Below, piece after piece: positions 5,946-34,235 of a DNA stretch of 64,000 nt. Under the pieces are notes generated by a model. The model worked only from the letters and a program-made list of their open reading frames with translations, made no database searches and was not told where the DNA came from. The stretch spans positions 1,128,221-1,192,220 of the forward strand of contig JAXLTI010000003.1 of the NCBI GenBank assembly GCA_046330135.1, written 5' to 3'. Both the position numbers and the translations under genes were made by a program. The stretch comes from a bacterium. Its GTDB lineage: Bacteria; ARS69. Position 1 is the stretch's first letter, and each line of letters opens with the position of its first letter.

Positions 5946-5948
5946 ACC

Positions 5949-6251
5949 GTGCCCACGTATCGTTACGAGTGCGCGCGCTGCGGGCGCATCCACGAGTATT
6001 TCCACGGCATGTCCGAGCCGCCGAAGACGCGGTGCCCCGACTGCGGCGGCCGCCTCACGCAGCTGATCGGCGGCGGCTCCGGCGTGATCCTCAAGGGCAC
6101 GGGCTTCCACAAGACGGACTACCGCTCGAAGAGCTCCCGCGAGGCGGCGCACCGCGACGAGACCGCGGCGAAGTCCGAGAGCACGCCGAAGCCGAAAGAG
6201 ACGAAGGACAAGAAGGAGTCGAAGGGCGGCGGCGAGGGCGCGAAGGGCTGA
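5949..6251 (+). CDS. FmdB-family zinc-ribbon putative regulatory protein
   Basis: Sequence YRYECARCG...RCPDCGG gives two CxxC pairs. Lys/Glu-rich tail. Confidence 0.7.
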   Translation: MPTYRYECARCGRIHEYFHGMSEPPKTRCPDCGGRLTQLIGGGSGVILKGTGFHKTDYRSKSSREAAHRDETAAKSESTPKPKETKDKKESKGGGEGAKG

Positions 6252-16446: not shown

Positions 16447-16660
16447 GCGGCGCTTCGCACGCGCTGGGCGACTCGCTTCGTCGGCCGGAGTCACATCCGC
16501 TCAAAGGCGGCTCGCGGAGCCCACCGCTGCGCACTTCGGGACGACGCGTCCCTCGGCAGGGGGCCGCCGCGCCGCTTCGGCCCGTTCCCATTCGGTCGAC
16601 CTGCGCGTATGCTAGATGCCGACATCCCCCCTCATCCGGCCGTTCACCGAGGAGTCCTCC

Positions 16661-19288
16661 ATGGGACCGCTCCACCGAACCGCCCTCCTGGCCACGGTCG
16701 CCGTCGCCGGCGCCGCGGCCGTCTTCTTCGTCCGCCCGGCCCAGTTTCGCGCCGGGTCGTCCGCGGGCCTCCCCGCAGGAGTCCGCCCCGCCGCGGAGAG
16801 CCCCGAGGTGGAAGGCCAGGGTGAGGACCACGCCTGGGAGATGTTCGAGTGGTGGTACGGCCAGCGCGCGTATCCCAACGACCTGATCCCGCAGCAGGGC
16901 TTCTGGAACGCCTGGCAGACGCGCTCGCACATGACGGTGGACGAAGGCACGCTCCGATCGGCCACCTGGACGTCCATCGGACCGGACAACGTGGGCGGAC
17001 GGATGCTCGCCGTGGCGGTGGACCCGTCGAACTCGTCGCGCGTGTGGGCCGGCGCGGCCAGCGGCGGGCTGTGGCTCTCCACGACCGGCGGCGTGGGCGC
17101 GGCGGCCTGGAACCGCGTCGAGACGGGCTTCCCGTCGGTCGCGGTCAGCGGCATCGCCATCGACCCCACGAACCCGCAGAAGATGGTCATCGGGACCGGC
17201 GAGATCGGCCGGTACCAGAACGGGCAGGTCGGCACGCCGGGCGCGCGCAGCAGCTACGGCCTCGGCATCCTCCGCAGCACGGACGGCGGCACCACGTGGC
17301 TCGCCACCGGGTTGACCTGGACCTTCGACCAGCGTCGCGCGGTGCAGGCGGTCCGCATGGACCCGACCGCTCCGGCGAACGTCTGGGCCGCCACCACCGA
17401 AGGAGTCTTCCGCAGCACGGACGGCGGCGACACGTGGGCGCAGAAGAGCGCCGTGGTCATGGCCATGGACGTGATCGTGGATCCCACGAACGGGCAGATC
17501 GCGTACGCGTCGCACGGGCAGCTCGGCGTCCCGGACGACACGCAGGCCGGCATCTGGAAGACCACGAACGCCGGCACCACCTGGACGCGCCTCGCCGGCG
17601 GCCTTCCCACCACGAGCTTCGGCCGCACCGCGCTGGCGATCTCCTCGGATGCCGCACGCATCTGGGCCGGCGTGTCCAACGCGTCCACCCGTCAGATCGT
17701 GGGCCTGTACCGCTCCACGAACGGCGGCACGAACTGGACGAGCGTCAGCTCCACGAACTGGGCCAGCTCGCAGGCGTGGTACGACAACGTCACGGCGGTC
17801 TCGCCCACGAACTCGAACCTCGTGATCTGCGCCGGCCTCGACGTTTACCGCTCCACCACGGGCGGCGGGAGCCTCGCCCACGTCTCCGACTGGTCCGCCG
17901 GCTACGAAGGCGACGTGCCCGCGGGCGGCCCCGAGGGCCCTGCCAACTACGTGCACGCGGACTCGCACTGGTGCACGTTCGATCCGTCGAACCCCGCCAC
18001 GGTGTACATCGCGTGCGACGGCGGCATCTTCAAGTCCACCGACTCCGGCGCCACGTGGACCGGGGCGAACGGCGGCCTGCGCTCGAGCCAGTTCTACGCG
18101 GGCTTCGCGTTCCAGGCGAACGACCACGCGCTCGGCGGGCTGCAGGACAACGGCACGCTGCTCTACCACGGCGCCGATTCGTGGAACAAGACGTTCGGCG
18201 GCGACGGCGGCTGGTGCGCCATCGACCCGACCACGCCGAACACGCTCTACGAGGAGTACGTGTACTTGAACATGTACAAGAGCACCGACAACGGCGCGAG
18301 CTGGAACGAGGCGCACGTGTACAGCAGCTCCACCGCGAACTTCATCGCGCCGTTCGTCCTGTCGCCGTCCAGCCCGAACATCCTCTACGCGGGCGAGCTC
18401 GCCGTGGAGAAGTCCACGGACGGCGGCACGAGCTGGAACTTCGGGGGCGGCGGCTCGAACTGGAACGGCACGCCCGTGGCCACGATCGGCGTGTCGTTCG
18501 GCGATGCGAACCGCGTCGTGGCCGGAACGGGCAGCTCCACGGGCACGATCGAGATCCGCCGGACCACGAGCGGCGGCACCACGTGGACGGCCGCCACCGG
18601 ATACCCGGCGCGCTATCCCACGGACTTCGCGTTCGACCCGTCGAACAACGACGTCGTGTGGGCCACGTTCTCGGGCTACGGCACGGGCCACGTCTTCCGC
18701 TCCACGGACGTCGGGCTCACGTGGGTGAACGTCTCGGGGAACCTCCCGGACCTCCCGCACCAGACCGTCGCCGTGGATCCGCTCAATCCGGCGTGGGCGT
18801 ACGTGGGCACGGACCTCGGCGTCTACCGCACGACGGACGGCGGCACGAGCTGGACGATCTACGACGTGGGCATGCCGCCGGCCATGATCCTCGACCTCGC
18901 GATCTCCTCCGCGCGACGCATGCGCGCGGCCACGTTCGGCAACGGCGTCTGGGAGATCGACCTGCCCACGGCGTCCACGGGCGTCGCGGTGGCGTCGAGC
19001 GAGCGGCGCAGCGCGCTGGCGTTCGAGGCGAGTCGGCCGAATCCGTTCCGGGCTCAGACGTCCATCCGGCTCGCTCTCCCCAAGGAAGCGGACGTGAGCC
19101 TCACCGTCCTGGACGCGGCGGGGCGCCGCGTGCGCACCCTCGTGAACGGCCGTCACGCGGCCGGGTCGCTCGAGGTGGCCTGGGACGGGCGGGATGAAGG
19201 GGGCCGTCGCGTGGCGGCCGGCACCTACTTCGTCCGCGCCACCGGTGCCGGGCAGATCGCCGCCACCAAGGTCACCGTGCTCCAGTAG
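16661..19288 (+). CDS. Secreted BNR/Asp-box repeat protein (sortilin/GH74-like beta-propeller) with T9SS-type C-terminal sorting domain
   Basis: Signal peptide MGPLHRTALLATVAVAGAAA preceded by GAGGAG. About 10 S-x-D-x-G-x-T-W BNR motifs. C-terminus PNPF...LTVLDAAGRRVRTLVNG...AGTYFVRA matches the Por_Secre_tail/FlgD-Ig-like consensus. Confidence 0.75.
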   Translation: MGPLHRTALLATVAVAGAAAVFFVRPAQFRAGSSAGLPAGVRPAAESPEVEGQGEDHAWEMFEWWYGQRAYPNDLIPQQGFWNAWQTRSHMTVDEGTLRSATWTSIGPDNVGGRMLAVAVDPSNSSRVWAGAASGGLWLSTTGGVGAAAWNRVETGFPSVAVSGIAIDPTNPQKMVIGTGEIGRYQNGQVGTPGARSSYGLGILRSTDGGTTWLATGLTWTFDQRRAVQAVRMDPTAPANVWAATTEGVFRSTDGGDTWAQKSAVVMAMDVIVDPTNGQIAYASHGQLGVPDDTQAGIWKTTNAGTTWTRLAGGLPTTSFGRTALAISSDAARIWAGVSNASTRQIVGLYRSTNGGTNWTSVSSTNWASSQAWYDNVTAVSPTNSNLVICAGLDVYRSTTGGGSLAHVSDWSAGYEGDVPAGGPEGPANYVHADSHWCTFDPSNPATVYIACDGGIFKSTDSGATWTGANGGLRSSQFYAGFAFQANDHALGGLQDNGTLLYHGADSWNKTFGGDGGWCAIDPTTPNTLYEEYVYLNMYKSTDNGASWNEAHVYSSSTANFIAPFVLSPSSPNILYAGELAVEKSTDGGTSWNFGGGGSNWNGTPVATIGVSFGDANRVVAGTGSSTGTIEIRRTTSGGTTWTAATGYPARYPTDFAFDPSNNDVVWATFSGYGTGHVFRSTDVGLTWVNVSGNLPDLPHQTVAVDPLNPAWAYVGTDLGVYRTTDGGTSWTIYDVGMPPAMILDLAISSARRMRAATFGNGVWEIDLPTASTGVAVASSERRSALAFEASRPNPFRAQTSIRLALPKEADVSLTVLDAAGRRVRTLVNGRHAAGSLEVAWDGRDEGGRRVAAGTYFVRATGAGQIAATKVTVLQ

Positions 19289-19471: not shown

Positions 19472-20056
19472 ATGACGCTGCGCACCGCCTCGCTCGGGAT
19501 CCTCCTCGCTCTCACCGTCGCTGCGCCGCCCCCTTCCCGGGCGGAGGACAATCCGCCGCCCGCCGCGGAAGGCGCCTCGCGCGCCAAGGCGCCAGGCTTC
19601 CACGTGGTCGACGTCAAGGGCGACAAGGTCTCCCTCGACGATCTCCTGGGGAAGGGCCCGGTCGTCATCGACTTCTGGGCGACGTGGTGCAAGCCGTGCA
19701 TCAAGGAGCTGCCGTACCTGCAACGGATCCTCGATCAATACGGGAAGAGAGGCGTGCAGGTGTGCGCGGTCACCATCGACTCGCCGAAGTCGCAGAGCCA
19801 GGTGAAGAAGTTCGTCGACACGCGCAACTACACGTTCCGCGTGCTGATGGACGGGGACCAGGAGGTCTTCCACAAGCTCCAGGGCAAGGGCTCCATCCCG
19901 TACGTGGTCGTGCTCGACTCGCAGGGCTTCATGCGGTTCCAGCACACGGGCTACGTGCCCGGGAACGAGAAGGAGATCGAGCGCGTGGTCGTGGAGCTGC
20001 TCGGCGGAGCGGGAGAGGCCCCTCAGGCGGAGGCCACGCCCGACACCACGAAGTGA
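19472..20056 (+). CDS. Secreted TlpA/ResA-like thiol-disulfide oxidoreductase (thioredoxin fold)
   Basis: Signal peptide, then DFWATWCKPC CxxC active site. Confidence 0.8.
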   Translation: MTLRTASLGILLALTVAAPPPSRAEDNPPPAAEGASRAKAPGFHVVDVKGDKVSLDDLLGKGPVVIDFWATWCKPCIKELPYLQRILDQYGKRGVQVCAVTIDSPKSQSQVKKFVDTRNYTFRVLMDGDQEVFHKLQGKGSIPYVVVLDSQGFMRFQHTGYVPGNEKEIERVVVELLGGAGEAPQAEATPDTTK

Positions 20057-21621
20057 GCCGGCGCCCGGGCCGCCCGACCGGCGGACGAAGGGGGCGCGCC
20101 GGGGCGTTCGCGATCGCATTCCTCACGGCGTCCGCGGCCGGCCTCGCCCGCGCCGACGACGACGCATCCACGCTCCGCATCAGCGCCACGGACAAGCTCG
20201 AGTACCGCCGCTTCGCCCACGAAGGCGTGCGCGAGGAGGCCTTCCGCAACCGGCTCGAGGTCTCCGGCTACCAGGGCATCTTCTCGGCGTGGCTCCGCCT
20301 CGAATCCCTGGAGCTCTCCAACGCCGCCGTGTACGACCCCTACGCCGTGGCGAAGACCGGCGTCACCGGCGAGCAGCGCATCGATCAGACCGAGGTCACG
20401 AAGCGGCTCTTCGGCGTGGAGACCGAGCACTTCCGCGTGCAGGCCGGCGACGTGTCGAACGTCTTCGGCCGCGGCCTCGCCATGTCGGTGTTCGAGGACG
20501 AGGAGCTGAACTTCGACACGCGCCTCGAAGGGGTCCGCGCGCGCGGAGAGAACGACCTCGGCGCCGCGACGGTCGTGGCCGGAAGCCAGCTCGGCAACCG
20601 CTTCCGGGGCGTCTTCGTGGAGCCGCGTCCGTTCGACCTCCGTGGTCCGTGGCCGAAGGCCCGCGCGCGGGTGGGCGGGAGCTTCGTGGAGGCGTGGGGC
20701 GCCACGGCGAACACGGACATCCTCCCGCGCGAGCAGCAGTCGGGCGGGCTCGCGGAGCTCGTGGTCGGGCCGGCCACGGTGTACGGCGAGTGGGTGGAGC
20801 GGGAATTCCCGGGGAAGGACGGGCTCGGCCACCTCGGAAAGCCGGGGCACGGCGGGTTCTTCTCGGGCGAGGTCACCACGCACGGCGTGACCTTCTCCGC
20901 CGAGCACAAGGACTTCTACCGCTTCGAGCACAAGTACCACGATCCGCCCACGACGTTGCGCCAGCACACGTGGACGAGCCTCCTGCGCGTGAACGGGCAG
21001 ATCCTCTCCGACATTCCCGACGACGACGTGAACGGGACGTTGCTCCAGGCCGAGTGGGCGCCGGGGACGTTCACGTCGTTCCTCGGGAGCTGGGCGCAGC
21101 TGGACAAGGACGTGGGCTCGGACCGTTTCCGCGAGGTCTATGGCGAAGCGAAGACCACGTGGCGGGAGAAGGTCTTCCTGACGGGTGCCGCCGCGGACTC
21201 CCGGGCCCACCTCGGGACCCAGCACGAGGAGCGGATCACCGGCCTCGGGGAGGACGTCATGCACCTCGACGACGTCAACAGCATCACCCTCGAGGGCGAG
21301 TGGGCGGAGGTGAAGCGTTTCGATGACACCACCTTCCGGTTCCAGGACCCCCGCAGGTTCCACGACCGGATCTTCGCGATCTCCTACGGCCGCTCGCCGT
21401 GGCTCGATCTCACGGTGACTCGCGAGGATACGGACGAAGGCGCGGCCACGGAGCCCCGCAGCGTCTGGGGCAACGTGATCGCGGAGATCAACGTGGCGGA
21501 CGGCCACGACGTCGTTCTGAGCTACGGGTCCGAGCGCGGCGGGTGGAAGTGCACGGGCGGAGTGTGCTTCTATGAACCGGAGTTCGAAGGGATGAAGATC
21601 AAATGGGTCGGTCGCTTCTAG
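20053..21621 (+). CDS. Predicted outer-membrane beta-barrel protein
   Basis: GTG overlapping the tlpA-like stop. Signal peptide AFAIAFLTASAAGLARA. Amphipathic beta-strand periodicity. C-terminal ...KIKWVGRF with terminal Phe. The track's 645-aa ORF from 19684 overlaps the tlpA-like gene and is an artifact. Confidence 0.5.
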   Translation: MSRRPGRPTGGRRGRAGAFAIAFLTASAAGLARADDDASTLRISATDKLEYRRFAHEGVREEAFRNRLEVSGYQGIFSAWLRLESLELSNAAVYDPYAVAKTGVTGEQRIDQTEVTKRLFGVETEHFRVQAGDVSNVFGRGLAMSVFEDEELNFDTRLEGVRARGENDLGAATVVAGSQLGNRFRGVFVEPRPFDLRGPWPKARARVGGSFVEAWGATANTDILPREQQSGGLAELVVGPATVYGEWVEREFPGKDGLGHLGKPGHGGFFSGEVTTHGVTFSAEHKDFYRFEHKYHDPPTTLRQHTWTSLLRVNGQILSDIPDDDVNGTLLQAEWAPGTFTSFLGSWAQLDKDVGSDRFREVYGEAKTTWREKVFLTGAAADSRAHLGTQHEERITGLGEDVMHLDDVNSITLEGEWAEVKRFDDTTFRFQDPRRFHDRIFAISYGRSPWLDLTVTREDTDEGAATEPRSVWGNVIAEINVADGHDVVLSYGSERGGWKCTGGVCFYEPEFEGMKIKWVGRF

Positions 21622-22841
21622 CCCTCGCAGCGGTCCTCTTCGTGGCGTCCTCCTGCTTCGAGGACGTGCCCCCGCCCACGCAGGGGTTCATCGAGATCGG
21701 CACCGGCGGCGTGTCCGGCGCGGAGGTGTTCCTGGACGGCGTCTCGCAGGGCGCGGCCGAGAAGCTCGGTCCCCTGGAGGCGGGCACGTACACGGTGAGC
21801 GTGGCGAAGCCGTACTACGACGTGGCGCCGGCGGACCGCGAGGTCGTGGTGCAGCCCACGAAGACCGCGCGCGTGGACTTCGCGATGACGCTGGTCGTGG
21901 TCGGTGCGGCGCACGTGACCGCCACGGACGAGCTTCTCGGCGGCGCGGTCGACGGCGCGGCCATCTTCATCCTGGACGGCTCCGGCACGCCGCAGCCCAC
22001 CGGGGTCGTCACGGACGCGTCCGGCAGCGCAACCCTCGAGCGCCTGCCGCCCGGCCCCACGCGGTTCCTCCTGCGCAAGGACGGGTTCGCGGACACCTCG
22101 CCGATCGCGGAGGACGTGCAGCCTTTCAACACCATCGACGTGGCGGCGCAGCTCGGGCCGCCGCGGGCAGTCCTCCTGGAGATGTTCACGTACGTCGTGT
22201 GTCCGAACTGCCCGCCGTCCTCCGCCGAGATTCGCGGGATGTACCGGGACAACGCCGGCACGCTCTTCGCGATCGAGTGGCACAGCGTGGCCGGGCTGCC
22301 GCTTTACGACGCGCGCTGGCACACGCACGAGATCTACTACCGCGGCACCAACTTCAACGGATGGCCGGCGGTGGTGGTTCAGGGCGGGGCCAACGACAGC
22401 CCGGCCGTGCTCGTGGACAGCAACGCGTCGGAGCTGGCCCAGTATCACGCCCGATTCGAGGCGCAGCGCGGCGCTTGCTCGAACGACTGCCCCGTGGCCG
22501 TGAAGGCGACCGGCACCATCGATGCTCTGGCCGCCACCTTCACGGTCCGTGTGAAGTGGCGGGGCGGCTCGTTGCCGGGCAACCTCGTGCTGCGGACCGC
22601 GTTGATCCAGCAGCTCGTGTCCGCTCCGGGGAACGACTCGCCCTACGACTTCGTGGCGCGCGATCTTCACGAGGAAGCGCTCACGTTGACGACGCCGGGC
22701 CAGGTTGTGGAATTCCCAGAATCCTTCATCATCTCCGGCACTTGGAACGCCGACAAGATGGATCTCGTGTCATACGTGCAGTCCGATGACACGCACGAGA
22801 TTCTGGCCGTTTGGGGGACGCGTCGTGTGACGCTCCCGTGA
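21603..22841 (+). CDS. Lipoprotein with thioredoxin-like CxxC (CPNC) module; Cys-containing paralog of the two downstream TGA-containing genes
   Basis: Lipoprotein-type signal (LFVASSC). Internal LLEMFTYVVCPNCPPS aligns with the EEFGxxxUxYCPxA segment of the downstream paralogs. Further conserved blocks (FAIEWH ~ LVHIDWH; YYRGTNFNGWPAVVVQGGAN ~ YYGVPAVPDVFFDGGNN). No T9SS CTD. Confidence 0.6.
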   Translation: MGRSLLALAAVLFVASSCFEDVPPPTQGFIEIGTGGVSGAEVFLDGVSQGAAEKLGPLEAGTYTVSVAKPYYDVAPADREVVVQPTKTARVDFAMTLVVVGAAHVTATDELLGGAVDGAAIFILDGSGTPQPTGVVTDASGSATLERLPPGPTRFLLRKDGFADTSPIAEDVQPFNTIDVAAQLGPPRAVLLEMFTYVVCPNCPPSSAEIRGMYRDNAGTLFAIEWHSVAGLPLYDARWHTHEIYYRGTNFNGWPAVVVQGGANDSPAVLVDSNASELAQYHARFEAQRGACSNDCPVAVKATGTIDALAATFTVRVKWRGGSLPGNLVLRTALIQQLVSAPGNDSPYDFVARDLHEEALTLTTPGQVVEFPESFIISGTWNADKMDLVSYVQSDDTHEILAVWGTRRVTLP

Positions 22842-22971: not shown

Positions 22972-23736
22972 ATGAGACGGGCATTGGCAATCCTTGTGTT
23001 GGTCGCGGTCGTCACGATGGTTGGATGGTTCGGCGCGCCTTCGAACGCGCTCGCCTACGGGTACACGATCACGCCGCTCGGCTCGCTGACGCAGAGCTGG
23101 CCCGAGATCGACTTCACCGGGCCGTATTTCTACTTCCTGCTGAGGAACACAGCGGCGGTGGCGGACTCCTTCCATCTGGAGATCCAGAATCTCATCGTGT
23201 CGCCCGTGCCGCCGCAGGGCTACGAGTGGTTCCCGCAGGTCTGCTTGCGGCAGATCTGCTTCCCGGACAGCACCACGCTGCGCTTCGAGGCGGGTGTGCA
23301 GGACACGATCGGTGTGGACCTGGTCCCCTTCACCGACGGCGTCGGCAACGCGGACTTCGTCATGCACTCCGTGGGGAATCCGGCGCTCAACAGCACGTTC
23401 CATCTGAGGCTCTACGCGGGTACCGCGGCGGTGGGAGCGGGCATGCCGCCGAGCATCCCCACGCTGCAGCTCTCTCAGAGCGCACCGAATCCCGCGACCG
23501 GCCGCACCCGGATCCCGTTCATCCTGCCGCGCGAGGGACGCGCCACGCTGCGCGTCTACGACGCCGCAGGCAGGCTCGTCGAGACGCTCGTGGACGGAAC
23601 GCTCGCGGCCGGCGCGCACTCGGCCGAATGGACCGCTCGCACGGCGAGCGGGCAACTGCTGCCGGCGGGCGCGTATTTCTATCGCCTGGAGACTCCTCGC
23701 GGGTCTCTCTCGCGCAGCTTGATCCTGATTCGATGA
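22972..23736 (+). CDS. Small secreted protein with T9SS-type C-terminal sorting domain
   Basis: Signal peptide. C-terminus PNPATGRTRIPFILPREGRATLRVYDAAGRLVETLVDGTLAAGAHSAEW...GAYFYRLE. Confidence 0.6.
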   Translation: MRRALAILVLVAVVTMVGWFGAPSNALAYGYTITPLGSLTQSWPEIDFTGPYFYFLLRNTAAVADSFHLEIQNLIVSPVPPQGYEWFPQVCLRQICFPDSTTLRFEAGVQDTIGVDLVPFTDGVGNADFVMHSVGNPALNSTFHLRLYAGTAAVGAGMPPSIPTLQLSQSAPNPATGRTRIPFILPREGRATLRVYDAAGRLVETLVDGTLAAGAHSAEWTARTASGQLLPAGAYFYRLETPRGSLSRSLILIR

Positions 23737-23799
23737 CTCCGGACGTCTTCTCGCGTTAATCACCGGCCGGTCGGACCCGGCCTACGAAAGGAGCACGCA

Positions 23800-25812
23800 G
23801 TGAGAGCGAAGTGGTTAGCGCCGGTTCTGCTCGTGATCGGCTTCGTGATGATGGCGGTTCCCGCCTTCGCGGGGGTGCAGCGCACCACGATGGTGGAGGA
23901 GTTCGGGTATTTGTCTTGACCGTACTGCCCCTGGGCCCGTGCGGCCCTTCGGAACGTCGAGCTCGCCTACCCGAATGACGATCAGCTCGTCCACATCGAC
24001 TGGCATACGTCTGACGCCCTGGCGAACGGCTCGGGCGCAACACGTGCTAACTACTACGGCGTCCCGGCCGTTCCTGACGTGTTCTTCGACGGCGGCAACA
24101 ACGTTCTCGGCGCAGGCGACTCGGTGAGTGCCTACAGCGACTTCAGACCGCGCGTGGACGCCGCCTACGCGGTGCCCTCGAAGCTCATTATCAGCGCTCA
24201 GCTCGACCTGAACTCGAGCACGATGCTAGCCACAGTCACCACGGACGTGACTGTGGCGCCCGGCGAAACGATCGGGACACCGAGCGCCTGTAAGGTCCGC
24301 GCGGCGTTGACCGAGGACAACATCGTCAGGTGCTGCGAGCCCCACACCGGGCACCTGACTTGGAACTACATCTCTCGCGCGATGGTCTTCGAGGTTCCGC
24401 TCACCGACTCGCTTTCGGGCCAGACGCAGCACATCGTGCAGACGTTCCCGATCGACCCGTCGTGGAACATCCGGAACCTGCACGCGGCGGTGTGGGTCCA
24501 GCGCGACACGAACAAGAACATCCTCCAAGCGGCGAACGCCACGGTGGCGTACGAAGCCGTCCTCACGGATCTCGACCCCATCGTGGCGAAGGTCACGTCG
24601 GGGCCGAGCACCTTCGACGACCAGGTCACGAACACGGGCACGTTCAGCGATGACGTGACCCTGACGCTCGACGAGTCCACGCTGCCCTCTGGTTGGAGCG
24701 CGGACATCGTCTACAACTCGACGGTCTACCCGTCGACCGTCACGATCCCGAACATGGCGCATGGCCAGGTGGAGAACGTGAGCGTGCGTGTCACGCCGAA
24801 CGGACCCGGGGAGGGAACCGTTGCGCTCATCGCGGCGCCGTTCCACAACTCCACGTGGACGAACGTGCACCCGTACCACACGTTCTCGCAGACGCCGGCG
24901 ATCCTCTTCGTGGACGACGACAACGGCGCGTCCTTCGAAGGGAAGTACCAGAACGCGATCACCGGCGCCGGCTACTGGTCCGTGACGCAGACGGTGTCCA
25001 CGCAGGGCAATCCGCTCGCGAGCTACATCAACCTCTTCGACGCGCTCGTCTGGAACACCGACTCGCTCCAGACGAACACGATCGGCACGGCGCTCCAGAC
25101 CACGCTCATGAGCTACATGGACGGCGGCGGGAAGCTCTTCCTCGTCAGTCAGGGGATCCTGAACGAGCGCGGGCTCACGCCGATGGTCACGGGCTACCTC
25201 CGCGTGAGCGCGTTCACGCCGGACGTGGGCGGGGCGAGCGCGACCGGCCTCGCGGGGGATCCGATCGGGGACGGTCTGAGCTTCGCGGTCAGCCCGCCGT
25301 TCGTGAACAAGGCCGACGCGGTCACGCCGAACACCGGTGGCGTGGCTTGGTTGGACGCGGGCTTGAACCATGTGGCCGTGCGGTACGACTCGGGCGTCTA
25401 CCGGACGGTCTTCATGACGGCGCCCTTCGAGGGGATCGCGACACCCACGGATGCCACGGTGATGAAGCGGGTGCTCGACTGGCTCGTGCCGAACGACATC
25501 ACCGCGGTTCCCCCGGTGGCGGGACGGGACGAGAGCGGGCTGGCCCTCTGGCAGAACGCTCCCAACCCCTTCAGCGGCACCACCTCGTTGCTCTTCTCGA
25601 TGCCCCAGGCCGGGCACGCTCGCCTCACCGTCTACGACGTCGCGGGCCGCCGGGTGGCGAGCCTCGTCGATCGTCAGCTCGAGGCGGGGGCGCACTCGGT
25701 TGTCTGGGACGGCCGGGACGTGACCGGGGCGCGCACCGCGAGCGGGGTTTACCTGGTCCGCCTCACCGCGAACGGCCGGACGGTCAGCCGGGAGATGGTG
25801 CGGGTGAAGTAA
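23800..25812 (+). CDS. Putative secreted selenoprotein, paralog 1: thioredoxin-like U-P-Y-C module, large uncharacterised domain, T9SS C-terminal domain. In-frame TGA at 23917..23919 read as Sec
   Basis: GTG start 9 nt after AGGAG. Signal peptide VRAKWLAPVLLVIGFVMMAVPAFA|GVQ lies upstream of the TGA. The frame stays open from the TGA into the 577-aa ORF listed in the track. UxxC aligns with CPNC of gene 21603. C-terminus matches the T9SS CTD (NPFSGTTSLLFSMPQAGHARLTVYDVAGRRV...GVYLVRL). Confidence 0.6.
23933..23947 (+). promoter_or_regulatory. Putative bacterial SECIS hairpin, paralog 1
   Basis: GGGCC-CGUGC-GGCCC. Lies 13 nt downstream of the UGA. Loop identical to that of paralog 2. Confidence 0.5.
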
Positions 25813-25867
25813 AGGCGGATGCAGGAACACAGGTTCGGCGCCCGGCCGGGTCCGGGCGGCGACTCTC

Positions 25868-25906
25868 GGGGGGGCCGTCGGGCGACCGGCGGCCTCCCTT
25901 CTTGCC
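25868..25906 (+). terminator. Terminator-like hairpin after paralog 1
   Basis: GGGGGGCCGTCGG-gcga-CCGGCGGCCTCCC followed by TTCTTGCC. Confidence 0.45.
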
Positions 25907-26059
25907 GATTGGGGGCCGATCCGCGACCAACCCGGTGCCCCGGTGGCACTCGGTGTGGTATTTTGGAGCCAGTTGCCTAACCCCCACGGCAGCGGTGCGC
26001 CATGTAGGTCCGGCTCCTCTCTCCCGGCCGGTGCTCACCGGCTTCGAAAGGAGATCCCT

Positions 26060-28096
26060 GTGAGAGCAAGGTCCCTCACGAAGGTCCTTTTCCTCCTCCT
26101 CGGCGCCGTGCTCTTCGCCGCGCCCGCTCTGGCGACAGTCCAGCGGACGATGCTCGTCGAAGAGTTCGGCTGGTGGAATTGAACGTACTGCCCCTACGCC
26201 CGTGCGGCGTTGCGGATGACGGAACGGCAGGACTACCCCGACAAGACCCAGCTCGTCCACCTCGACTGGCACTTCAACGACGCGGTGCTCGGTAACCCCA
26301 GCTCGACGGCGCGCGCCCAGTACTACGCCGCGAACTCCGCTCCCGACGTCTGGTTCGACGGCAGCCAGCACGTCGTCGGCGCCGGCGACTCCGTGGGGAC
26401 GTACAACACGTACAAGCCGATCCTCGCGGCGCACTACATCGATCCGTCGCAGCTGCTCGTGTCGGTGACGCTCGATCTGAACTCGATCACGTTGACCGGT
26501 ACGTCCACGGTGAACGTCCAGGTGGCGCCGGGGGAGACCATCAACCTCCCCTCCAACTGCAAGATCCGGTGCGCGCTCTACGAAGACGCGGTGCCCCTGG
26601 GCGGCGGCAGAACGGAGCCGCACACCGGGAACACCACCATGAACTACATCGCCCGGCTGATGATCACCGAGACCACGCTCACGGCGACGAACTCGGGCGA
26701 TACCCAGCAGGTGGTGACGAACTTCAGTATCGATCCGACGTGGAAGATCCAGGATCTGCACGCGGTGGCATTCGTTCAGCGCGATACGAACAAGAAGGTG
26801 CTGCAGGCGGGCTTCTCCCCGGCGCAGTACCAGGTTCTCGTGTCCGATCTCGGTACCCCCGTGGCGCGGGTCAACAGCGGTGCCAAGGACTTCAACTCCC
26901 AGGTCCTGTACCAGGGCACCGTCAACGACGACGTGCTGCTGACGCTCGACAAGTCGGCCCTGCCCGTCGGATGGGACGCTGCGATCGTGTGGAACGGCAA
27001 CTCGTACCCCACGACGCTCACGATCCCGAACATGACGAAGGACCAGCAGGAGGCGATCACGGTCCGCGTGACTCCGTCGGCCCCGGGGATGGGGACGGTG
27101 GGATTCTCCGTGGAGCCCGTGTCGCTGCCGCCGGCCGCGCAGAATCACAGCTACATCACGTTCTACCAGCGGCCGAAGCTGCTCTTCGTGGACGACGACA
27201 ACGGCGCCCACCTGGAGACGTACTACCAGAATGCGCTCGCCAGCGCCGGCTACTTCGCGCTCGGACACGACGTCGCAGCCCTCAACGGAGCCACTCCGCC
27301 GGTGAGCTGGATGTCGAACTTCGACGCCGTCATCTGGAACACGGATTCGCTCCAGGTGCTGACGCTCGGCGGACCGCAGCAGGCTGATCTCATCAGCTAT
27401 CTGGACGGCGGCGGCCGGCTGTTCCTCTGCAGCCAGGGATTCCTGAACGATCGCGGGCTCGTGGCCCTCACCACGAACTACCTCCGGGTGAGCGCGTTCA
27501 CCCGGGACGTAGGTGCTCCGACCGTCACGGGCGTCGCCGGAGACCCGATCGGGGACGGCATGAGCTTCGCCGTCACCCCGCCCTTCACCAACCTGGCGGA
27601 TGCGTTGACGCCGGGCGTGGGGGCGGCGCCGTGGCTGGACTCGGGCGCGAATCACGTCGCCATGCGCTACGACAGCGGCGTCTTCAAGACCGTGCTCCTG
27701 ACCGCGCCGTTCGAGGGCATCGCTGCGCCCAACGACGCGCTGGTCATGCAGCGCGTGCTCCAGTGGCTCGTGCCGGATACGGCCACGGATGCTCCGGTGA
27801 TCGGTGGGCAGGTGGCGGGCGGTCTGGCGTTGTTCCAGAACGTCCCGAACCCGTTCAGCGGCACCACGTCGCTGCGCTTCTCGCTGCCGGCGGCCGGCCA
27901 CGTGGGCCTGGCCATCTACGACGTCGCGGGTCGCCGCGTGGCGAGCCTCGTCGATCGCAGGCTGGAAGCGGGCACGCACTCGTTCGATTGGGACGGGCGT
28001 GACGTCACGGGCGCGCGGGTCGCGAGCGGCGTGTACCTCGTCCGTCTCAAGGCCGGCAACGAAACCGTCAGCCGCGAGATGGTGCGGGTGCACTAG
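26060..28096 (+). CDS. Putative secreted selenoprotein, paralog 2: U-T-Y-C module, large uncharacterised domain, T9SS C-terminal domain. In-frame TGA at 26180..26182 read as Sec
   Basis: GTG start after AGGAG. Signal peptide VRARSLTKVLFLLLGAVLFAAPALA|TVQ is listed in the track as a separate 79-aa ORF ending at the TGA. That ORF is in frame with the 628-aa ORF beginning 9 codons later. T9SS CTD at the C-terminus. Confidence 0.6.
26196..26210 (+). promoter_or_regulatory. Putative bacterial SECIS hairpin, paralog 2
   Basis: ACGCC-CGUGC-GGCGU. Lies 13 nt downstream of the UGA. Two stem base pairs covary relative to paralog 1 (G-C to A-U, G-C to C-G). Confidence 0.5.
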
Positions 28097-31380: not shown

Positions 31381-31562
31381 TCCGGGCGCTGGCCGGCCCG
31401 GGCCGCGCCGCCGGCAGCCCTGTTCGGGCGGCAGCCCTGTTCGGGAACGCCGCATGCCCGGCCCTCGCGGGCCATCCGCTCCAGCGTCGCCCTCGCCTTG
31501 TTCGTGCTCGGGGACGGTGTTACCCTGTCCCGCCCCTTCCATTGCGCGAGGCGGAGGTTTCC

Positions 31563-34235
31563 GTGGCGGAGCCCAAGATCCACGAGCTCCCGAAGGCGTA
31601 CGAGCCGGCGGCCGTCGAGGAGCGGATCTACGGCTTCTGGGAGGCCGGCGGGCACTTCCACGCGGACCCGCGCTCGTCGAAGCCCCCGTTCACGATCATG
31701 ATCCCGCCGCCCAACGTGACCGGCGTCCTCCACATGGGGCACGCCTTGAACAACACGTTGCAGGACATCGTGATCCGGCACCGTCGCATGGCCGGGTTCG
31801 AGGCGCTCTGGCTGCCCGGCACCGATCACGCCGGCATCGCCACGCAGGCCGTGGTGGAGAAGCAGCTCTACAAGGAGTTCGGGCTCACGCGCGAATCGAT
31901 GGGCCGCGAGGCGTTCGTCGGCGAGATCTGGAAATGGCGGGAGCGGCACGGGGACGCCATCCTCCGTCAGCTTCGCCGCCTCGGCTGCTCGTGCGACTGG
32001 TCGCGGACGAAGTTCACCCTCGACGACGACATGAGCCGCGCGGTGGCCACCGCCTTCGTGCGCCTCTGGGAGCGCGGGCTCGTCTACCGCGGCGCGCGGC
32101 TCGTGAACTGGGATTGCACGCTGCGCACCGCCGTCTCCGACGACGAGATCGAGTACGTGCCGCGGCGCGGCAAGCTCTGGTACGTCCGCTATCCGGTGCG
32201 CGGGGAGGAAGGTCGCTTCATCACCGTGGCCACCACGCGGCCGGAGACCATGCTCGGCGACACGGGCGTGGCGGTGCATCCGGGCGACGAGCGCTGGAGC
32301 AGCTTCATCGGCAAGACCGTGTTGCTGCCGCTGCTGGATCGGCCCATTCCCGTGGTGGCGGACGAGACGGTGGAGACCGCGTTCGGCACGGGCGCGGTGA
32401 AGGTGACGCCGGGCCACGATCCCGCGGACTACGACCGCGGGCAGCGCTTCGGCCTGCCCATCGTGAGCCTGTTCGAGCCGGACGGGACGCTCGGCGAGGC
32501 GGCGGGCCCGTATCGCGGGCAAACGCGCGAGGGCGCGCGCGAGCGGATCGTGGCGGACCTCGAGGCGCGCGGGCTCCTGGAGAAGGTGGAGGAGATCGAG
32601 CACAACGTGGCCGTGTCGGACCGCTCGCGGGACACGATCGAGCCGTTGATCTCGGAGCAGTGGTTCGTGCGCATGAAGGAGATCGCCGGGCCCGCCATCG
32701 AGGCGGTGAAGTCCGGCCGGCTCAAGATCGTCCCGGAGCGCTGGGCGAAGGTGTACCTGGACTGGCTCGAGAACGTGCGGGACTGGTGCATCTCGCGGCA
32801 GCTCTGGTGGGGCCACCGCATCCCCGTGTGGTACGACGAGGACGGAGTGCCCGCCGCCTCCGCGCTGCCGCTCGCGCGCGGCTCGCCGCACCCGAAGACC
32901 GGCAAGCGCATCGTGCGCCAGGACGACGACGTGCTGGACACGTGGGCGTCCAGCTGGCTGTGGCCCTTCGCCACGCTCGGCTGGCCGGAGCGCACCGCGG
33001 ATCTCGCGCGCTTCTATCCCACGCAGTTCCTGAGCACCGCGCGGGAGATCATCTACCTGTGGGTGGCGCGCATGGTGATCGCGGGCTACGAGCTGCTGGA
33101 CTTCCTCCCGGAGGACCAGCGCTGCCCGTTCTCCACTTGTTACATTCACGCCACGGTGCTCGACACGCAGGGCCGGCGGATGTCGAAGAGCCTGGGCAAC
33201 GGCATCGACCCGATCGAGATGATCGACAAGTACGGCGCGGACGCGGTGCGCTACTCGCTCGTGACGCTCACCCGCGAGGGCCAGGACGTGAAGCTGGCGG
33301 AGAACCGCTTCGAGCTGGGCCAGCGCTTCTGCAACAAGATCTGGAACGCGGTGCGCTTCGCCCTCGCCAACCTGGACGGCGTGCCGCAGGGGCCGCTCGG
33401 CGAGACGCTCGAGGATCGCTGGATCCTCTCGCGCACGCGGCGCGCGATCCGCGAGGTGGAGTCGTCGCTCACGGAGTACCGCTTCCACGACGGCGCCGCG
33501 GAGCTGTACCGCTTCTTCTGGAACGACCTGTGCGACTGGTACCTCGAGGTCGCGAAGCGCCGGCTGGCGCCCGGCGCGAGCGAGTCGGATCGGGAGGCGG
33601 CGCGCGCCACGCTGGCGCGGGTCCTCTCCGCCACGATCCGCATGCTGCATCCGTATCTTCCGTTCGTGACCGAGGAGCTGTGGAGCTACCTGCCGGGGAC
33701 GGACGGCGCGCTCGTGGTGGCCCCGTGGCCGGACGCGGACGCGTTCCGCGCGGACGAGGCCGCGGAGGCGGACTTCGAGCGGCTGCGCGAGACGGTCTCG
33801 GCGGTGCGGAACCTGCGCAGCTCCATGAACGTGCCGCCGAGCGCCACGGTGCGCCTGCTGGTGCACTCGGACGACGCGGACCTCGCGCGCGTGCTCGCCG
33901 AGACGTCGGAGCTGGCCACGGCGCTCGCGCGGCTGTCGGAGGTGACGGTGGGCCCGAGCGTCGCGAAGCCGAAGAGCGCGGCCAGCGCGGTGGTGCGCGG
34001 GGGAACGGTCTGGGTGCCGCTCGAGGGCGTCATCGACCTCGACGTCGAGCGCGAGAGGCTGCGCCGCGAGAACGAGCGCCTGGAGAACCTGGTCTCGGGC
34101 GCCACGCGGAAGCTCGGCAACGCGGACTTCGTGTCCCGCGCGAAGCCCGAGATCGTGGACCGCGAGCGGGAGAAGCTCGCGAGCCTGAAGACCGACCTGG
34201 ACCGCGTAACCGCCGCGCTCGCGGACCTGGAGTAG
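31563..34235 (+). CDS. valS: Valyl-tRNA synthetase
   Basis: GTG after GGAGG. HIGH motif (HMGHALN). KMSKS motif (RMSKSLGN). C-terminal coiled coil. Confidence 0.9.
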   Translation: MAEPKIHELPKAYEPAAVEERIYGFWEAGGHFHADPRSSKPPFTIMIPPPNVTGVLHMGHALNNTLQDIVIRHRRMAGFEALWLPGTDHAGIATQAVVEKQLYKEFGLTRESMGREAFVGEIWKWRERHGDAILRQLRRLGCSCDWSRTKFTLDDDMSRAVATAFVRLWERGLVYRGARLVNWDCTLRTAVSDDEIEYVPRRGKLWYVRYPVRGEEGRFITVATTRPETMLGDTGVAVHPGDERWSSFIGKTVLLPLLDRPIPVVADETVETAFGTGAVKVTPGHDPADYDRGQRFGLPIVSLFEPDGTLGEAAGPYRGQTREGARERIVADLEARGLLEKVEEIEHNVAVSDRSRDTIEPLISEQWFVRMKEIAGPAIEAVKSGRLKIVPERWAKVYLDWLENVRDWCISRQLWWGHRIPVWYDEDGVPAASALPLARGSPHPKTGKRIVRQDDDVLDTWASSWLWPFATLGWPERTADLARFYPTQFLSTAREIIYLWVARMVIAGYELLDFLPEDQRCPFSTCYIHATVLDTQGRRMSKSLGNGIDPIEMIDKYGADAVRYSLVTLTREGQDVKLAENRFELGQRFCNKIWNAVRFALANLDGVPQGPLGETLEDRWILSRTRRAIREVESSLTEYRFHDGAAELYRFFWNDLCDWYLEVAKRRLAPGASESDREAARATLARVLSATIRMLHPYLPFVTEELWSYLPGTDGALVVAPWPDADAFRADEAAEADFERLRETVSAVRNLRSSMNVPPSATVRLLVHSDDADLARVLAETSELATALARLSEVTVGPSVAKPKSAASAVVRGGTVWVPLEGVIDLDVERERLRRENERLENLVSGATRKLGNADFVSRAKPEIVDREREKLASLKTDLDRVTAALADLE

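What the first reader, a model, noticed from the sequence alone, without database searches (positions are those of the whole stretch)
23800..28096. Two tandem secreted T9SS-cargo genes interrupted by a single in-frame UGA in a UxxC motif: candidate novel extracytoplasmic selenoproteins
Both paralogs (23800..25812 and 26060..28096) begin with an RBS, a GTG start and a clear Sec-type signal peptide with an AxA cleavage site. They then run into one TGA, at 23917..23919 and 26180..26182 respectively. In both, the frame stays open from the TGA straight into a roughly 600-aa ORF. That ORF ends in a T9SS C-terminal sorting domain, which requires a signal peptide for export. The residues around the TGA are conserved between the paralogs: MVEEFGYLS-U-PYCPWARAAL and LVEEFGWWN-U-TYCPYARAAL. 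This gives a thioredoxin-like U-x-x-C redox motif, the arrangement found in known Sec redox proteins. A simple pseudogene or a downstream alternative start would not keep both an upstream signal peptide and a precisely aligned TGA in two copies. I did not see a secreted, T9SS-tailed selenoprotein of this architecture among the families I know.
Basis: partly seen in the sequence, partly recalled or inferred. Interest (0 to 1): 0.92.

Follow-up and report, generated by a model that had tools for sequence, protein, structure and literature searches.

The report
Surface-targeted thioredoxin-like selenoprotein genes, tandem pair
Two neighbouring genes for exported, cell-surface-targeted thioredoxin-like proteins almost certainly read their single in-frame UGA as selenocysteine, but they are a divergent, currently mis-annotated branch of a selenoprotein family already predicted in 2008 (GOS_C / 'Omp28-related selenoprotein'), not a new kind of protein.

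Summary
Both genes (23800-25812 and 26060-28096) have an RBS, a GTG start, a signal peptide, one in-frame TGA (23917, 26180) inside a U-x-x-C-P motif, and a C-terminal T9SS type-A sorting domain.

The selenocysteine reading is well supported:
- All 11 further homologous loci, down to about 26% identity and from Gemmatimonadota and Eiseniibacteriota MAGs and metagenomes, carry TGA at the same column behind an in-frame signal peptide.
- Homologs that cover the column almost always have Cys there (91 CxxC among the top 150 cluster representatives), including a paralog in the same operon.
- A hairpin with a small G-containing loop follows every UGA. It shows compensatory changes and frozen synonymous sites.

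It is not a new family. The best curated match is NCBIfam NF045500, 'Omp28-related selenoprotein', which is the 'hypothetical protein GOS_C' of Zhang & Gladyshev 2008 (UxxC, Trx-like fold). The closest solved structure to the paralogous domain is HBP35, a characterised T9SS-secreted thioredoxin-like protein of P. gingivalis.

What is new: a divergent clade that falls below the NF045500 cutoff and is truncated in public annotation, extra domains, and a conserved redox operon. Sec machinery (selA/B/C/D) could not be checked, because the window holds none.

The parts
23789..23793 (+). AGGAG ribosome-binding site of copy 1
   Evidence: Read directly; 6 nt before GTG 23800.
23800..25812 (+). Copy 1 (W1): full read-through ORF, 670 aa with U at residue 40
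   Evidence: translation. NCBI's record calls only a 562-aa truncated product (P0001).
23800..23871 (+). Sec-type signal peptide of W1 (24 aa, AFA|G)
   Evidence: by inspection. An equivalent in-frame signal peptide is present in all 13 copies.
23917..23919 (+). In-frame UGA of W1, the predicted selenocysteine codon (U-P-Y-C-P)
   Evidence: Same column is TGA in 13/13 copies and Cys in CxxC homologs.
23933..23947 (+). Core SECIS-like hairpin of W1: GGGCC-CGUGC-GGCCC. A weaker lower stem extends it to about 23921-23959.
23875..24588 (+). Thioredoxin-like plus Omp28-like beta-sandwich redox domain of W1 (residues about 26-263)
   Evidence: NF045500 57.6 bits and Pfam Omp28 37.0 bits. The family profile hits thioredoxins 1FO5 and 1NHO with U on the first active-site Cys. 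The paralog model matches HBP35.
25561..25800 (+). C-terminal T9SS type-A / FlgD_ig sorting domain of W1
   Evidence: TIGR04183 33.6 bits (cutoff 23); FlgD_ig 39.5 bits (GA 27).
26049..26053 (+). AGGAG ribosome-binding site of copy 2
26060..28096 (+). Copy 2 (W2): full read-through ORF, 678 aa with U at residue 41; 58% identical to W1
26060..26134 (+). Signal peptide of W2 (25 aa, ALA|T)
   Evidence: by inspection.
26180..26182 (+). In-frame UGA of W2, the predicted selenocysteine codon (U-T-Y-C-P)
26196..26210 (+). Core SECIS-like hairpin of W2: ACGCC-CGUGC-GGCGU
27845..28084 (+). C-terminal T9SS type-A / FlgD_ig sorting domain of W2
   Evidence: TIGR04183 31.9 bits; FlgD_ig 43.8 bits.
21603..22841 (+). 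In-operon Cys-form paralog: lipoprotein with PEGA, CarboxypepD_reg and a Trx/Omp28-like domain carrying C-P-N-C-P (Cys codon at 22200)
   Evidence: (BLASTP E 7e-10, U aligned to the first Cys).
19472..20056 (+). Exported TlpA/ResA-like redoxin (WCKPC), a conserved operon member
   Evidence: synteny.
20053..21621 (+). DUF6029 protein, a conserved operon member. Also found paired with an Omp28-like CxxC gene in unrelated contigs.
22972..23736 (+). Small exported protein with a FlgD_ig/T9SS tail, the conserved gene immediately upstream

Best explanation
Both genes encode exported selenoproteins. Shown here: the ORF continues in frame across one UGA. This UGA sits where relatives have the first, nucleophilic Cys of a thioredoxin-type C-x-x-C-P at the start of helix 1. 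A conserved stem-loop follows it, 14 nt after the codon, with a 5-bp G+C stem and a 5-nt loop, CGUGC. Inferred: SelB carrying Sec-tRNA(Sec) binds this hairpin as a bacterial SECIS and inserts selenocysteine. The Sec translocon exports the pre-protein and signal peptidase cleaves after AxA, leaving U 16 residues from the new N-terminus. The C-terminal type-A sorting domain then takes the protein through a type IX secretion system to the cell surface. There the U-x-x-C centre would act as a selenol/thiol oxidoreductase, a Sec version of the HBP35/Omp28-type surface thioredoxin. Also inferred, more weakly: the conserved neighbours form one extracytoplasmic redox module. These are an exported TlpA-like redoxin, DUF6029 and a lipoprotein carrying the Cys form of the same domain. 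The substrate is unknown. By analogy with HBP35, disulfide reduction or haem or metal handling at the surface are the most likely roles. In family terms this is a divergent, multi-domain clade of the GOS_C / 'Omp28-related selenoprotein' superfamily.
For: 1. TGA is at the identical column in 13/13 copies from independent assemblies at 26-65% identity. Each has an in-frame signal peptide and a (V/I)E(E/D)F motif upstream, and conserved protein sequence immediately downstream.
2. There is a Cys/Sec pair. The in-operon paralog aligns C-P-N-C-P to U-P-Y-C-P. Among the top 150 family cluster representatives, 91 have CxxC at the column, 45 begin just after it, and only 5 have another residue pair. 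A 670-aa Cys form of the whole architecture exists (P0016).
3. The hairpin is present at the same offset in all 13 copies. Two base pairs switch together, G-C/G-C to A-U/C-G, through a W-to-Y change on the 5' arm and synonymous Ala/Leu changes on the 3' arm. The covariation score is 0.292 against 0.144 in shuffles (0 of 500 reach it) and at most 0.12 in the slid controls.
4. Only 5 of 55 invariant residue columns of at least 4-fold degeneracy use a single codon in all 11 sequences. Three of those 5 are the consecutive hairpin codons GCC-CGT-GCG, and CGT is a minority Arg codon.
5. Seven Cys-form genes show no positionally conserved hairpin.
6. Curated homology: NF045500, 'Omp28-related selenoprotein', E 1.4e-15 and 5.4e-12. 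This family is listed as GOS_C, UxxC, in PMC13188914 and described in PMC2398784.
7. Fold: the family profile hits thioredoxins 1FO5 (E 1.6e-4) and 1NHO, with U on the first active-site Cys. The paralog model (pLDDT 86) has thioredoxin topology plus a beta-sandwich, and its best PDB match is HBP35, 5Y1A, E 1.5e-10, TM 0.75.
8. TIGR04183 is above its cutoff.
9. Synteny is conserved in 6 loci.
Against: No selA, selB, selD or tRNA-Sec is in the 64-kb window or in the fetched loci, and the rest of the genome could not be searched. No other selenoprotein gene is in the window. The hairpin's upper stem is only 5 bp and the lower stem is poorly conserved. Single-sequence folding energies are not better than shuffles. 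The double compensatory change maps to one clade, so it is one evolutionary event. No Rfam family matched. The thioredoxin fold of W1 itself was modelled with low confidence (first 85 residues pLDDT below 50), because the model had to start after the U. T9SS machinery was not looked for. No experimental evidence of Se incorporation exists for this family or for GOS_C.
Confidence: 0.85

Rival explanations
1. The UGA is read through without selenocysteine. A near-cognate or suppressor tRNA would insert Trp, Cys, Arg or Gly, with the hairpin merely slowing the ribosome or release factor 2, giving an ordinary exported redox protein.
For: Sec machinery was not demonstrated. The hairpin is short, and its lower stem is variable.
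Against: UGA is a normal stop in this sequence. The position is the catalytic Cys of a CxxC, where known UGA-to-Cys pairs are Sec. The nearest curated family is a selenoprotein family with the same UxxC. The loop keeps the G (GU) expected of bacterial SECIS elements in all 13 copies. A Cys codon would be one mutation away, yet none of the 13 copies uses it.
Confidence: 0.06
2. Translation stops at the UGA, giving a 39-40-aa leader peptide, and the large ORF is translated separately from an internal start as a non-exported protein. This is how the public annotation calls it, and it is reminiscent of the internal-start cytoplasmic forms reported for HBP35.
For: Gene callers chose internal starts (P0001 562 aa; 39-aa plus 577-aa genes). 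HBP35 yields 29- and 27-kDa cytoplasmic forms besides the full-length one.
Against: The stretch between the UGA and those internal starts is highly conserved at the protein level (C, P, ARAAL, HIDWH, VPDVFFDG), so it is translated. The part upstream of the UGA keeps the same frame, a signal peptide and the beta-1 motif in 13/13 copies. A product from an internal start would lack the signal peptide that a T9SS C-terminal sorting domain needs, and would lack the redox centre.
Confidence: 0.05
3. The two genes are pseudogenes, or the TGAs are sequencing or assembly errors.
For: Nothing specific beyond the presence of a stop codon.
Against: The same TGA is present in two paralogs and in 11 loci from independent assemblies and metagenomes. 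GC3 is about 0.91 and there are no other stops across about 630 codons. Protein sequence is strongly conserved on both sides.
Confidence: 0.02

Closest known systems
NCBIfam NF045500 'Omp28-related selenoprotein' = 'hypothetical protein GOS_C' (Zhang & Gladyshev 2008, PMC2398784; Table 1 of PMC13188914)
   Same: Homologous redox domain (E 1.4e-15 and 5.4e-12 over profile positions 37-282 of 377). Same UxxC motif, Trx-like fold, SECIS-like hairpin after the UGA, many Cys-form homologs, and function unknown but presumed thiol/selenol redox.
   Different: Scores 57.6 and 45.8 bits against a curated cutoff of 200, and none of 10 further relatives tested reaches it, so this is a separate, divergent clade. 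It is about 670 aa against a 377-position model, with an added Ig-like domain and an unassigned alpha/beta domain. It is found in Gemmatimonadota and Eiseniibacteriota MAGs rather than surface-ocean reads. NCBI's pipeline did not recognise it and truncated the gene.
HBP35 of Porphyromonas gingivalis (PDB 5Y1A; PMC2907840, PMC3120885)
   Same: Best structural match of the paralogous domain (Foldseek E 1.5e-10, TM 0.75, 247 columns): a thioredoxin-like domain with CxxC followed by a beta-sandwich. It has an N-terminal signal peptide and a C-terminal T9SS sorting domain. It is secreted by the Por/T9SS and attached to the surface, and its thioredoxin activity depends on the two Cys.
   Different: HBP35 has Cys, not Sec. 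The sequence relationship is marginal (profile E 0.18, 16% identity). It is 344 aa without the extra middle domains. Its role in haem acquisition has not been shown for this clade.
Omp28 family (Pfam PF11551; NCBIfam NF033782; PDB 2R2C)
   Same: The beta-sandwich part matches PF11551 (W1 37.0 bits, above the gathering score of 34.9), and 2R2C appears among both the structural and the profile hits.
   Different: W2 is below the gathering score (26.1). Omp28 proteins are lipoproteins rather than T9SS-tailed cargo, and the characterised members have no Sec.
Small archaeal thioredoxins MJ0307 / MTH895 (PDB 1FO5, 1NHO; TIGR00411) and Sec-containing Trx/Grx-like proteins with UxxC
   Same: The profile alignment places U on the first Cys of C-P-x-C-P and 'VPDVFFDG' on the cis-Pro loop. 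The redox logic is the same as in known UxxC thioredoxin-fold selenoproteins.
   Different: Those proteins are about 85-aa cytoplasmic single-domain proteins. The match here is distant (E 1.6e-4) and covers only the first 75-80 residues or so.

Membership tests
Bacterial selenoprotein (UGA decoded as Sec) | In-frame UGA conserved among homologs, with coding conservation on both sides | tested here: met
   13/13 copies have TGA at the same column, with a signal peptide and beta-1 motif upstream and a conserved Trx region downstream.
Bacterial selenoprotein (UGA decoded as Sec) | Cys-containing homologs aligning Cys with the UGA | tested here: met
   The in-operon paralog aligns Cys to U. 91 of the top 150 representatives are CxxC. 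L012 and L014 have Cys at the column.
Bacterial selenoprotein (UGA decoded as Sec) | SECIS: a stem-loop immediately downstream of the UGA, with a small apical loop containing G | tested here: met
   A 5-bp stem starts 14 nt after the UGA, with loop CGUGC (GUG in L010 and L011), in all 13 copies. It shows covariation and frozen synonymous sites. Criteria are as worded in PMC1088965. bSECISearch itself was not run.
Bacterial selenoprotein (UGA decoded as Sec) | selA, selB, selD and tRNA-Sec present in the genome | not testable with these tools
   None is in the window or the fetched loci.
Bacterial selenoprotein (UGA decoded as Sec) | Selenium incorporated at the UGA position | not testable with these tools
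   Needs 75Se labelling or mass spectrometry.
NF045500 Omp28-related selenoprotein (GOS_C) | HMM score at or above the curated cutoff (200 bits) | tested here: not met
   57.6 bits (W1) and 45.8 bits (W2). Relatives score 25-54 bits.
NF045500 Omp28-related selenoprotein (GOS_C) | UxxC motif in a Trx-like fold | tested here: met
   The motifs are U-P-Y-C and U-T-Y-C. The Trx relationship is shown. The motif and fold of GOS_C are as stated in PMC2398784.
Thioredoxin-fold thiol/selenol oxidoreductase | beta-alpha-beta-alpha-beta-beta-alpha topology with the CxxC/UxxC at the N-terminus of helix 1 | tested here: met
   Met for the Cys paralog model (pLDDT 86; E8-14, CxxC at 21-24, H22-34, and so on). 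For W1 itself the same order of secondary-structure elements is predicted, but at low confidence, because the model had to start after U. The link between the two is homology.
Thioredoxin-fold thiol/selenol oxidoreductase | Oxidoreductase activity dependent on the active-site pair | not testable with these tools
   Shown only for the structural relative HBP35 (PMC2907840).
T9SS type-A cargo | C-terminal sorting domain above the curated threshold | tested here: met
   TIGR04183 scores 33.6 and 31.9 bits against a cutoff of 23. Pfam FlgD_ig is above its gathering score, while Pfam Por_Secre_tail is below it (18.9 and 22.0 against 27).
T9SS type-A cargo | N-terminal Sec signal peptide | tested here: met
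   A basic n-region, a hydrophobic core and AxA are seen by inspection in all 13 copies. No signal-peptide predictor was available.
T9SS type-A cargo | T9SS machinery (SprA, PorV, PorU and others) in the genome | not tested
   None is in the window. Four genes within 12 kb carry the same tail, which suggests a widely used sorting signal.
HBP35-like surface thioredoxin | Structural similarity over the Trx plus beta-sandwich unit | tested here: met
   5Y1A, E 1.5e-10, TM 0.75, for the paralog domain.
HBP35-like surface thioredoxin | Significant sequence similarity | tested here: inconclusive
   The family profile against 5Y1A gives E 0.18.
Omp28 (Pfam PF11551) | Score at or above the gathering threshold (34.9 bits) | tested here: inconclusive
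   W1 scores 37.0 (met) and W2 scores 26.1 (not met).

The most novel reading that the evidence does not exclude
These proteins are the selenium-bearing terminal component of a dedicated extracytoplasmic redox module. The module would comprise an exported TlpA-like redoxin, DUF6029, a lipoprotein with the Cys form of the same domain, and T9SS-delivered U-x-x-C proteins. It would place a selenol on the outer surface of Gemmatimonadota and Eiseniibacteriota cells. That would make the GOS_C/Omp28-related family the first recognised class of cell-surface (T9SS-anchored) bacterial selenoproteins. Roughly a third of the wider family in public protein databases would then be unrecognised, truncated Sec forms.
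Probability: 0.3. Interest if true: 0.6.

Novelty: new member of a known kind. Interest (0 to 1): 0.42.

Why it matters
The result corrects a systematic mis-annotation. The window's own gene and its relatives are deposited as N-terminally truncated 'FlgD Ig-like domain' proteins, and 45 of the top 150 family cluster representatives begin just after the Sec column. These records therefore hide the catalytic centre and the signal peptide.

It also gives the orphan GOS_C selenoprotein family, function unknown since 2008, three useful handles. The first is a structural link to an experimentally studied T9SS-secreted surface thioredoxin, HBP35. The second is a predicted cell-surface location. The third is a conserved operon with a TlpA-like redoxin, DUF6029 and a Cys paralog.

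Together these make a concrete hypothesis testable: a selenium-dependent thiol/disulfide oxidoreductase on the cell surface. It also extends predicted Sec use to poorly studied Gemmatimonadota and Eiseniibacteriota lineages. It does not reveal a new decoding mechanism or a new protein fold.

Tried and rejected
- Rfam at gathering thresholds found nothing in the window, so it gave no SECIS or tRNA-Sec support.
- ARAGORN found no tRNA-Sec in the window or in 13 loci.
- Single-sequence folding z-scores of the 74 nt after each UGA were uninformative, at 0.11 and 1.10.
- A scan for other in-frame TGA genes in the window returned only gene junctions and W2. The FmdB-family ORF at 5946 is a Cys form.
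- pN/pS on short flanking segments was not decisive, at about 0.6.
The W1 model that starts after U has a low-confidence Trx part, and its Foldseek hits are dominated by generic Ig-like repeats, so the alpha/beta middle domain stays unassigned.
- The source contig could not be reached: P0001 is not indexed.
- Literature searches for 'Omp28 + selenoprotein' and for Sec use in Gemmatimonadota found nothing specific.
- The promoter/terminator scan of the operon was empty.
- The pseudogene or assembly-error idea and the 'downstream start with its own signal peptide' idea were rejected on the evidence.

Full report
OBSERVATION.
- Copy 1 (W1) has AGGAG at 23789-23793, GTG at 23800 and the signal peptide VRAKWLAPVLLVIGFVMMAVPAFA|G. 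Its TGA lies at 23917-23919 in the context MVEEFGYLS-U-PYCPWARAAL, and the frame stays open to TAA at 25812.
- Copy 2 (W2) has AGGAG at 26049-26053, GTG at 26060 and the signal peptide VRARSLTKVLFLLLGAVLFAAPALA|T. Its TGA lies at 26180-26182 in the context LVEEFGWWN-U-TYCPYARAAL, and the frame stays open to TAG at 28096.
- The two proteins are 58% identical.
- The window is 70.5% G+C. Both ORFs have GC3 of about 0.91, and UGA ends many clear genes here, so it is a normal stop codon in this organism.

DOMAINS. Pfam finds Omp28 (PF11551) at residues of about 83-250 and FlgD_ig at the C-terminus. Por_Secre_tail is below its gathering score. NCBIfam's TIGR04183, 'T9SS type A sorting domain', is above its cutoff in both proteins (33.6 and 31.9 bits against 23). 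The best NCBIfam hit for the N-terminal 240 residues or so is NF045500, 'Omp28-related selenoprotein', at E 1.4e-15 and 5.4e-12. Those scores, 57.6 and 45.8 bits, are far below the curated cutoff of 200. Weak hits to TIGR00411 and TIGR02187 cover the same N-terminal stretch around the motif (residues 27-107).

HOMOLOGS. A word-indexed protein search found only the window's own gene as NCBI called it (P0001: 562 aa, truncated, 'FlgD immunoglobulin-like domain containing protein', on a 1,295,897-bp MAG contig) and two relatives at 60% identity, also truncated. Their DNA (L001, L002) shows the same arrangement of signal peptide, MVEEFGF(Q/F)T, TGA and (G/Q)FCPWARAAL. In L002 the gene caller had produced a 39-aa 'gene' ending at the TGA, followed by a 577-aa gene.

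One scan each of the genome and metagenome collections added L003-L011. The named sources are Gemmatimonadota MAGs, a Candidatus Eiseniibacteriota MAG and an unclassified bacterium. All nine have TGA at the same column behind an in-frame signal peptide. That includes two distant copies at about 26% identity, L010 and L011, with MIEDFDAT(W/N)-U-(S/G)(H/Y)C. Two still more distant A+T-rich loci, L012 and L014, have Cys there (SSCPYCPP and TTCPPCVTA). So 13 of 13 members of this clade carry the UGA, which excludes assembly error and recent pseudogenisation.

WIDER FAMILY. An exhaustive HMM search with the region after the U found 1030 cluster representatives at E no greater than 1e-3. The best 150 break down as follows:
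- 91 cover the column with C-x-x-C.
- 45 begin within a few residues after it, which is the signature of gene calls that restart after an unrecognised UGA (some may be contig-edge fragments).
- 5 have another residue pair at the column, and 9 are not aligned there.
P0016 is a 670-aa Cys form of the entire architecture.

Inside the window's own operon, the lipoprotein gene at 21603-22841 carries a paralogous domain with LLEMFTYVV-C-PNCPP. BLASTP against W1 gives E 7e-10, with the first Cys aligned to U. This paralog hits the same region of NF045500.

SECIS-LIKE ELEMENT. A 5-bp G+C stem with a small loop follows each UGA at a fixed offset. The stem starts 14 nt after the codon. It occurs in three forms:
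- GGGCC-CGUGC-GGCCC in W1, L001, L002, L003 and L005.
- ACGCC-CGUGC-GGCGU in W2, L004 and L006-L009.
- A re-registered GCCCG-GUG-CGGGC in L010 and L011.

RNAalifold recovers the stem, and two pairs change on both sides (AU:6/GC:5 and CG:6/GC:5). The covariation score is 0.292, against 0.144 in shuffles (0 of 500 reach it) and at most 0.12 when the partners are slid. The 5'-arm change is the amino-acid change W to Y/D (TGG to TAC/GAC). The matching 3'-arm changes are synonymous (Ala GCC to GCG; Leu CTN to TTG/TTA).

A neighbour-joining tree shows the GGGCC type as a single clade. This is therefore one double compensatory event, plus the independent solution in L010 and L011, not many events.

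Independent support comes from synonymous sites. Of 55 invariant columns with residues of at least 4-fold degeneracy, only 5 use one codon in all 11 sequences. Three of those 5 are the consecutive hairpin codons GCC-CGT-GCG, and CGT makes up only 16% of Arg codons in these genes. Seven Cys-form genes have no positionally conserved hairpin after the Cys codon.

[quoted passage not shown] From memory, it also fits the bSECISearch spacing rule (Zhang & Gladyshev 2005) of an apical loop 16-37 nt from the UGA. That program was not run. Weak points remain. The lower stem is poorly conserved, single-sequence energies are unremarkable, and there is no Rfam hit.

FOLD. I therefore modelled the exact-window Cys paralog domain (22149-22838) with 16 homologs. 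The model has pLDDT 86.3 and pTM 0.87. Its topology is beta(8-14), CxxC(21-24)/alpha(22-34), beta, alpha, beta, beta, alpha, followed by a beta-sandwich.

Foldseek against the PDB gave HBP35 of P. gingivalis first (5Y1A; E 1.5e-10, TM 0.75, 247 columns). Next came 2AXO, and the Omp28 domain 2R2C was also among the hits.

The profile of the 14 domains hits the thioredoxins 1FO5 (E 1.6e-4) and 1NHO (4e-3). In those alignments the U column falls on the first Cys of C-P-x-C-P, and VPDVFFDG falls on the cis-Pro loop. Omp28 (0.05) and HBP35 (0.18) are only marginal by sequence.

The W1 model that starts after U keeps the same order of secondary-structure elements, but at pLDDT below 50 for the first 85 residues. 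The remainder is confident: a beta-sandwich, an Ig-like domain, an alpha/beta domain at about residues 328-522 of that model (which starts after the U), and the C-terminal Ig-like tail. Its PDB hits are generic.

CONTEXT. The gene order is conserved in L002, L003, L005 and L007, and partly in L001, L004 and L009: GT9, (Sortilin/BNR-FlgD_ig), TlpA/ResA-like redoxin (WCKPC), DUF6029, PEGA/CarboxypepD_reg lipoprotein with the Cys-form domain, small FlgD_ig-tailed protein, the UGA gene, GT2, TPR. Only the window has two tandem UGA copies. DUF6029 is also immediately upstream of an Omp28-like CxxC gene in unrelated contigs.

The remainder of the window holds pilMNQ, obg, dprA, lipid-A acyltransferase, RNase D, GGDEF, ValRS, RodZ, the complex I operon, Kup, a two-component system and others. 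It contains no selA, selB, selD or tRNA-Sec and no other candidate selenoprotein.

COMPARISON WITH WHAT IS KNOWN. [quoted passage not shown] The original paper reports 74 Sec sequences and 312 Cys homologs in the GOS data, a Trx-like fold, a UxxC motif, SECIS-like elements and no known function (PMC2398784). The family concept therefore exists.

The present clade is homologous to it but fails the curated cutoff, as do ten other relatives I tested. NCBI's pipeline did not recognise the window's gene as a selenoprotein.

HBP35, the closest solved structure, is a Por/T9SS-secreted, surface-attached protein. Its in-vitro thioredoxin activity is lost when the two Cys are mutated (PMC2907840 abstract; PMC3120885). 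Neither the review, nor Haft's 2022 preprint, nor a full-text search links Omp28, T9SS or the outer membrane to this selenoprotein family.

VERDICT. Selenocysteine decoding is the best explanation (about 0.85), resting on the standard comparative criteria. The one missing piece is the Sec machinery, which these tools could not reach.

It is a new, divergent, multi-domain member of a known predicted selenoprotein superfamily, not a new family. Its modest added value has three parts: the link to HBP35-type T9SS surface thioredoxins, the conserved redox operon, and the scale of mis-annotation.

Noticed in passing
window 21603-22841 (+): A lipoprotein (lipobox ASSC) combines PEGA, CarboxypepD_reg and a C-terminal thioredoxin/Omp28-like domain with C-P-N-C-P. 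It is the Cys-form paralog of the UGA genes. Its AF2 model (pLDDT 86) best matches HBP35 (5Y1A).
   Followed up: yes
window 20053-21621 (+); L015 223-1860 and 1892-2743: A DUF6029 gene lies immediately upstream of an Omp28-like CxxC gene, both in this operon and in unrelated metagenomic contigs. This suggests a conserved DUF6029 plus Omp28-like functional pair of unknown role.
   Followed up: partly
window 19472-20056 (+): An exported TlpA/ResA-like redoxin (FWATWCKPC) is a conserved member of the same gene cluster in six loci, and could be a reductant supplier for the module.
   Followed up: partly
window 16616-19288, 22972-23736, 23800-25812, 26060-28096 (+): Four genes within 12 kb end in the same FlgD_ig / T9SS type-A tail, so this sorting signal appears to be heavily used in this organism. 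T9SS machinery itself was not looked for.
   Followed up: no
window 34119-34207 (-): ARAGORN calls an 89-nt tRNA-Glu(CTC) here. It lies inside the valyl-tRNA synthetase ORF (31383-34232, +), and Rfam found no tRNA in the window, so it is probably a false positive.
   Followed up: partly
L002 8475-8594 and 8754-10487; P0001: Public annotations split or truncate these genes. One record has a 39-aa ORF ending at the UGA plus a 577-aa ORF, and the window's own record aa. 45 of the top 150 family cluster representatives start just after the Sec column.
   Followed up: partly
window about 24900-25480 (W1 residues about 370-560): A confidently modelled alpha/beta domain (ILFVDDDNG...DALVWNTD...GGGKLFLVSQG) has no Pfam or NCBIfam match and no clear PDB assignment.
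   Followed up: partly
L018 6001-8013: P0016 is a 670-aa Cys (CxxC) form of the complete architecture. It sits in an unrelated neighbourhood without the redoxin or DUF6029 genes, so the operon association is specific to the Sec clade and its Cys paralog.
   Followed up: partly
window 5946-6251 (+): This is an FmdB-family zinc-ribbon ORF. The family has Sec forms elsewhere, but this copy has ordinary CxxC pairs (CARCG, CPDCG).
   Followed up: yes
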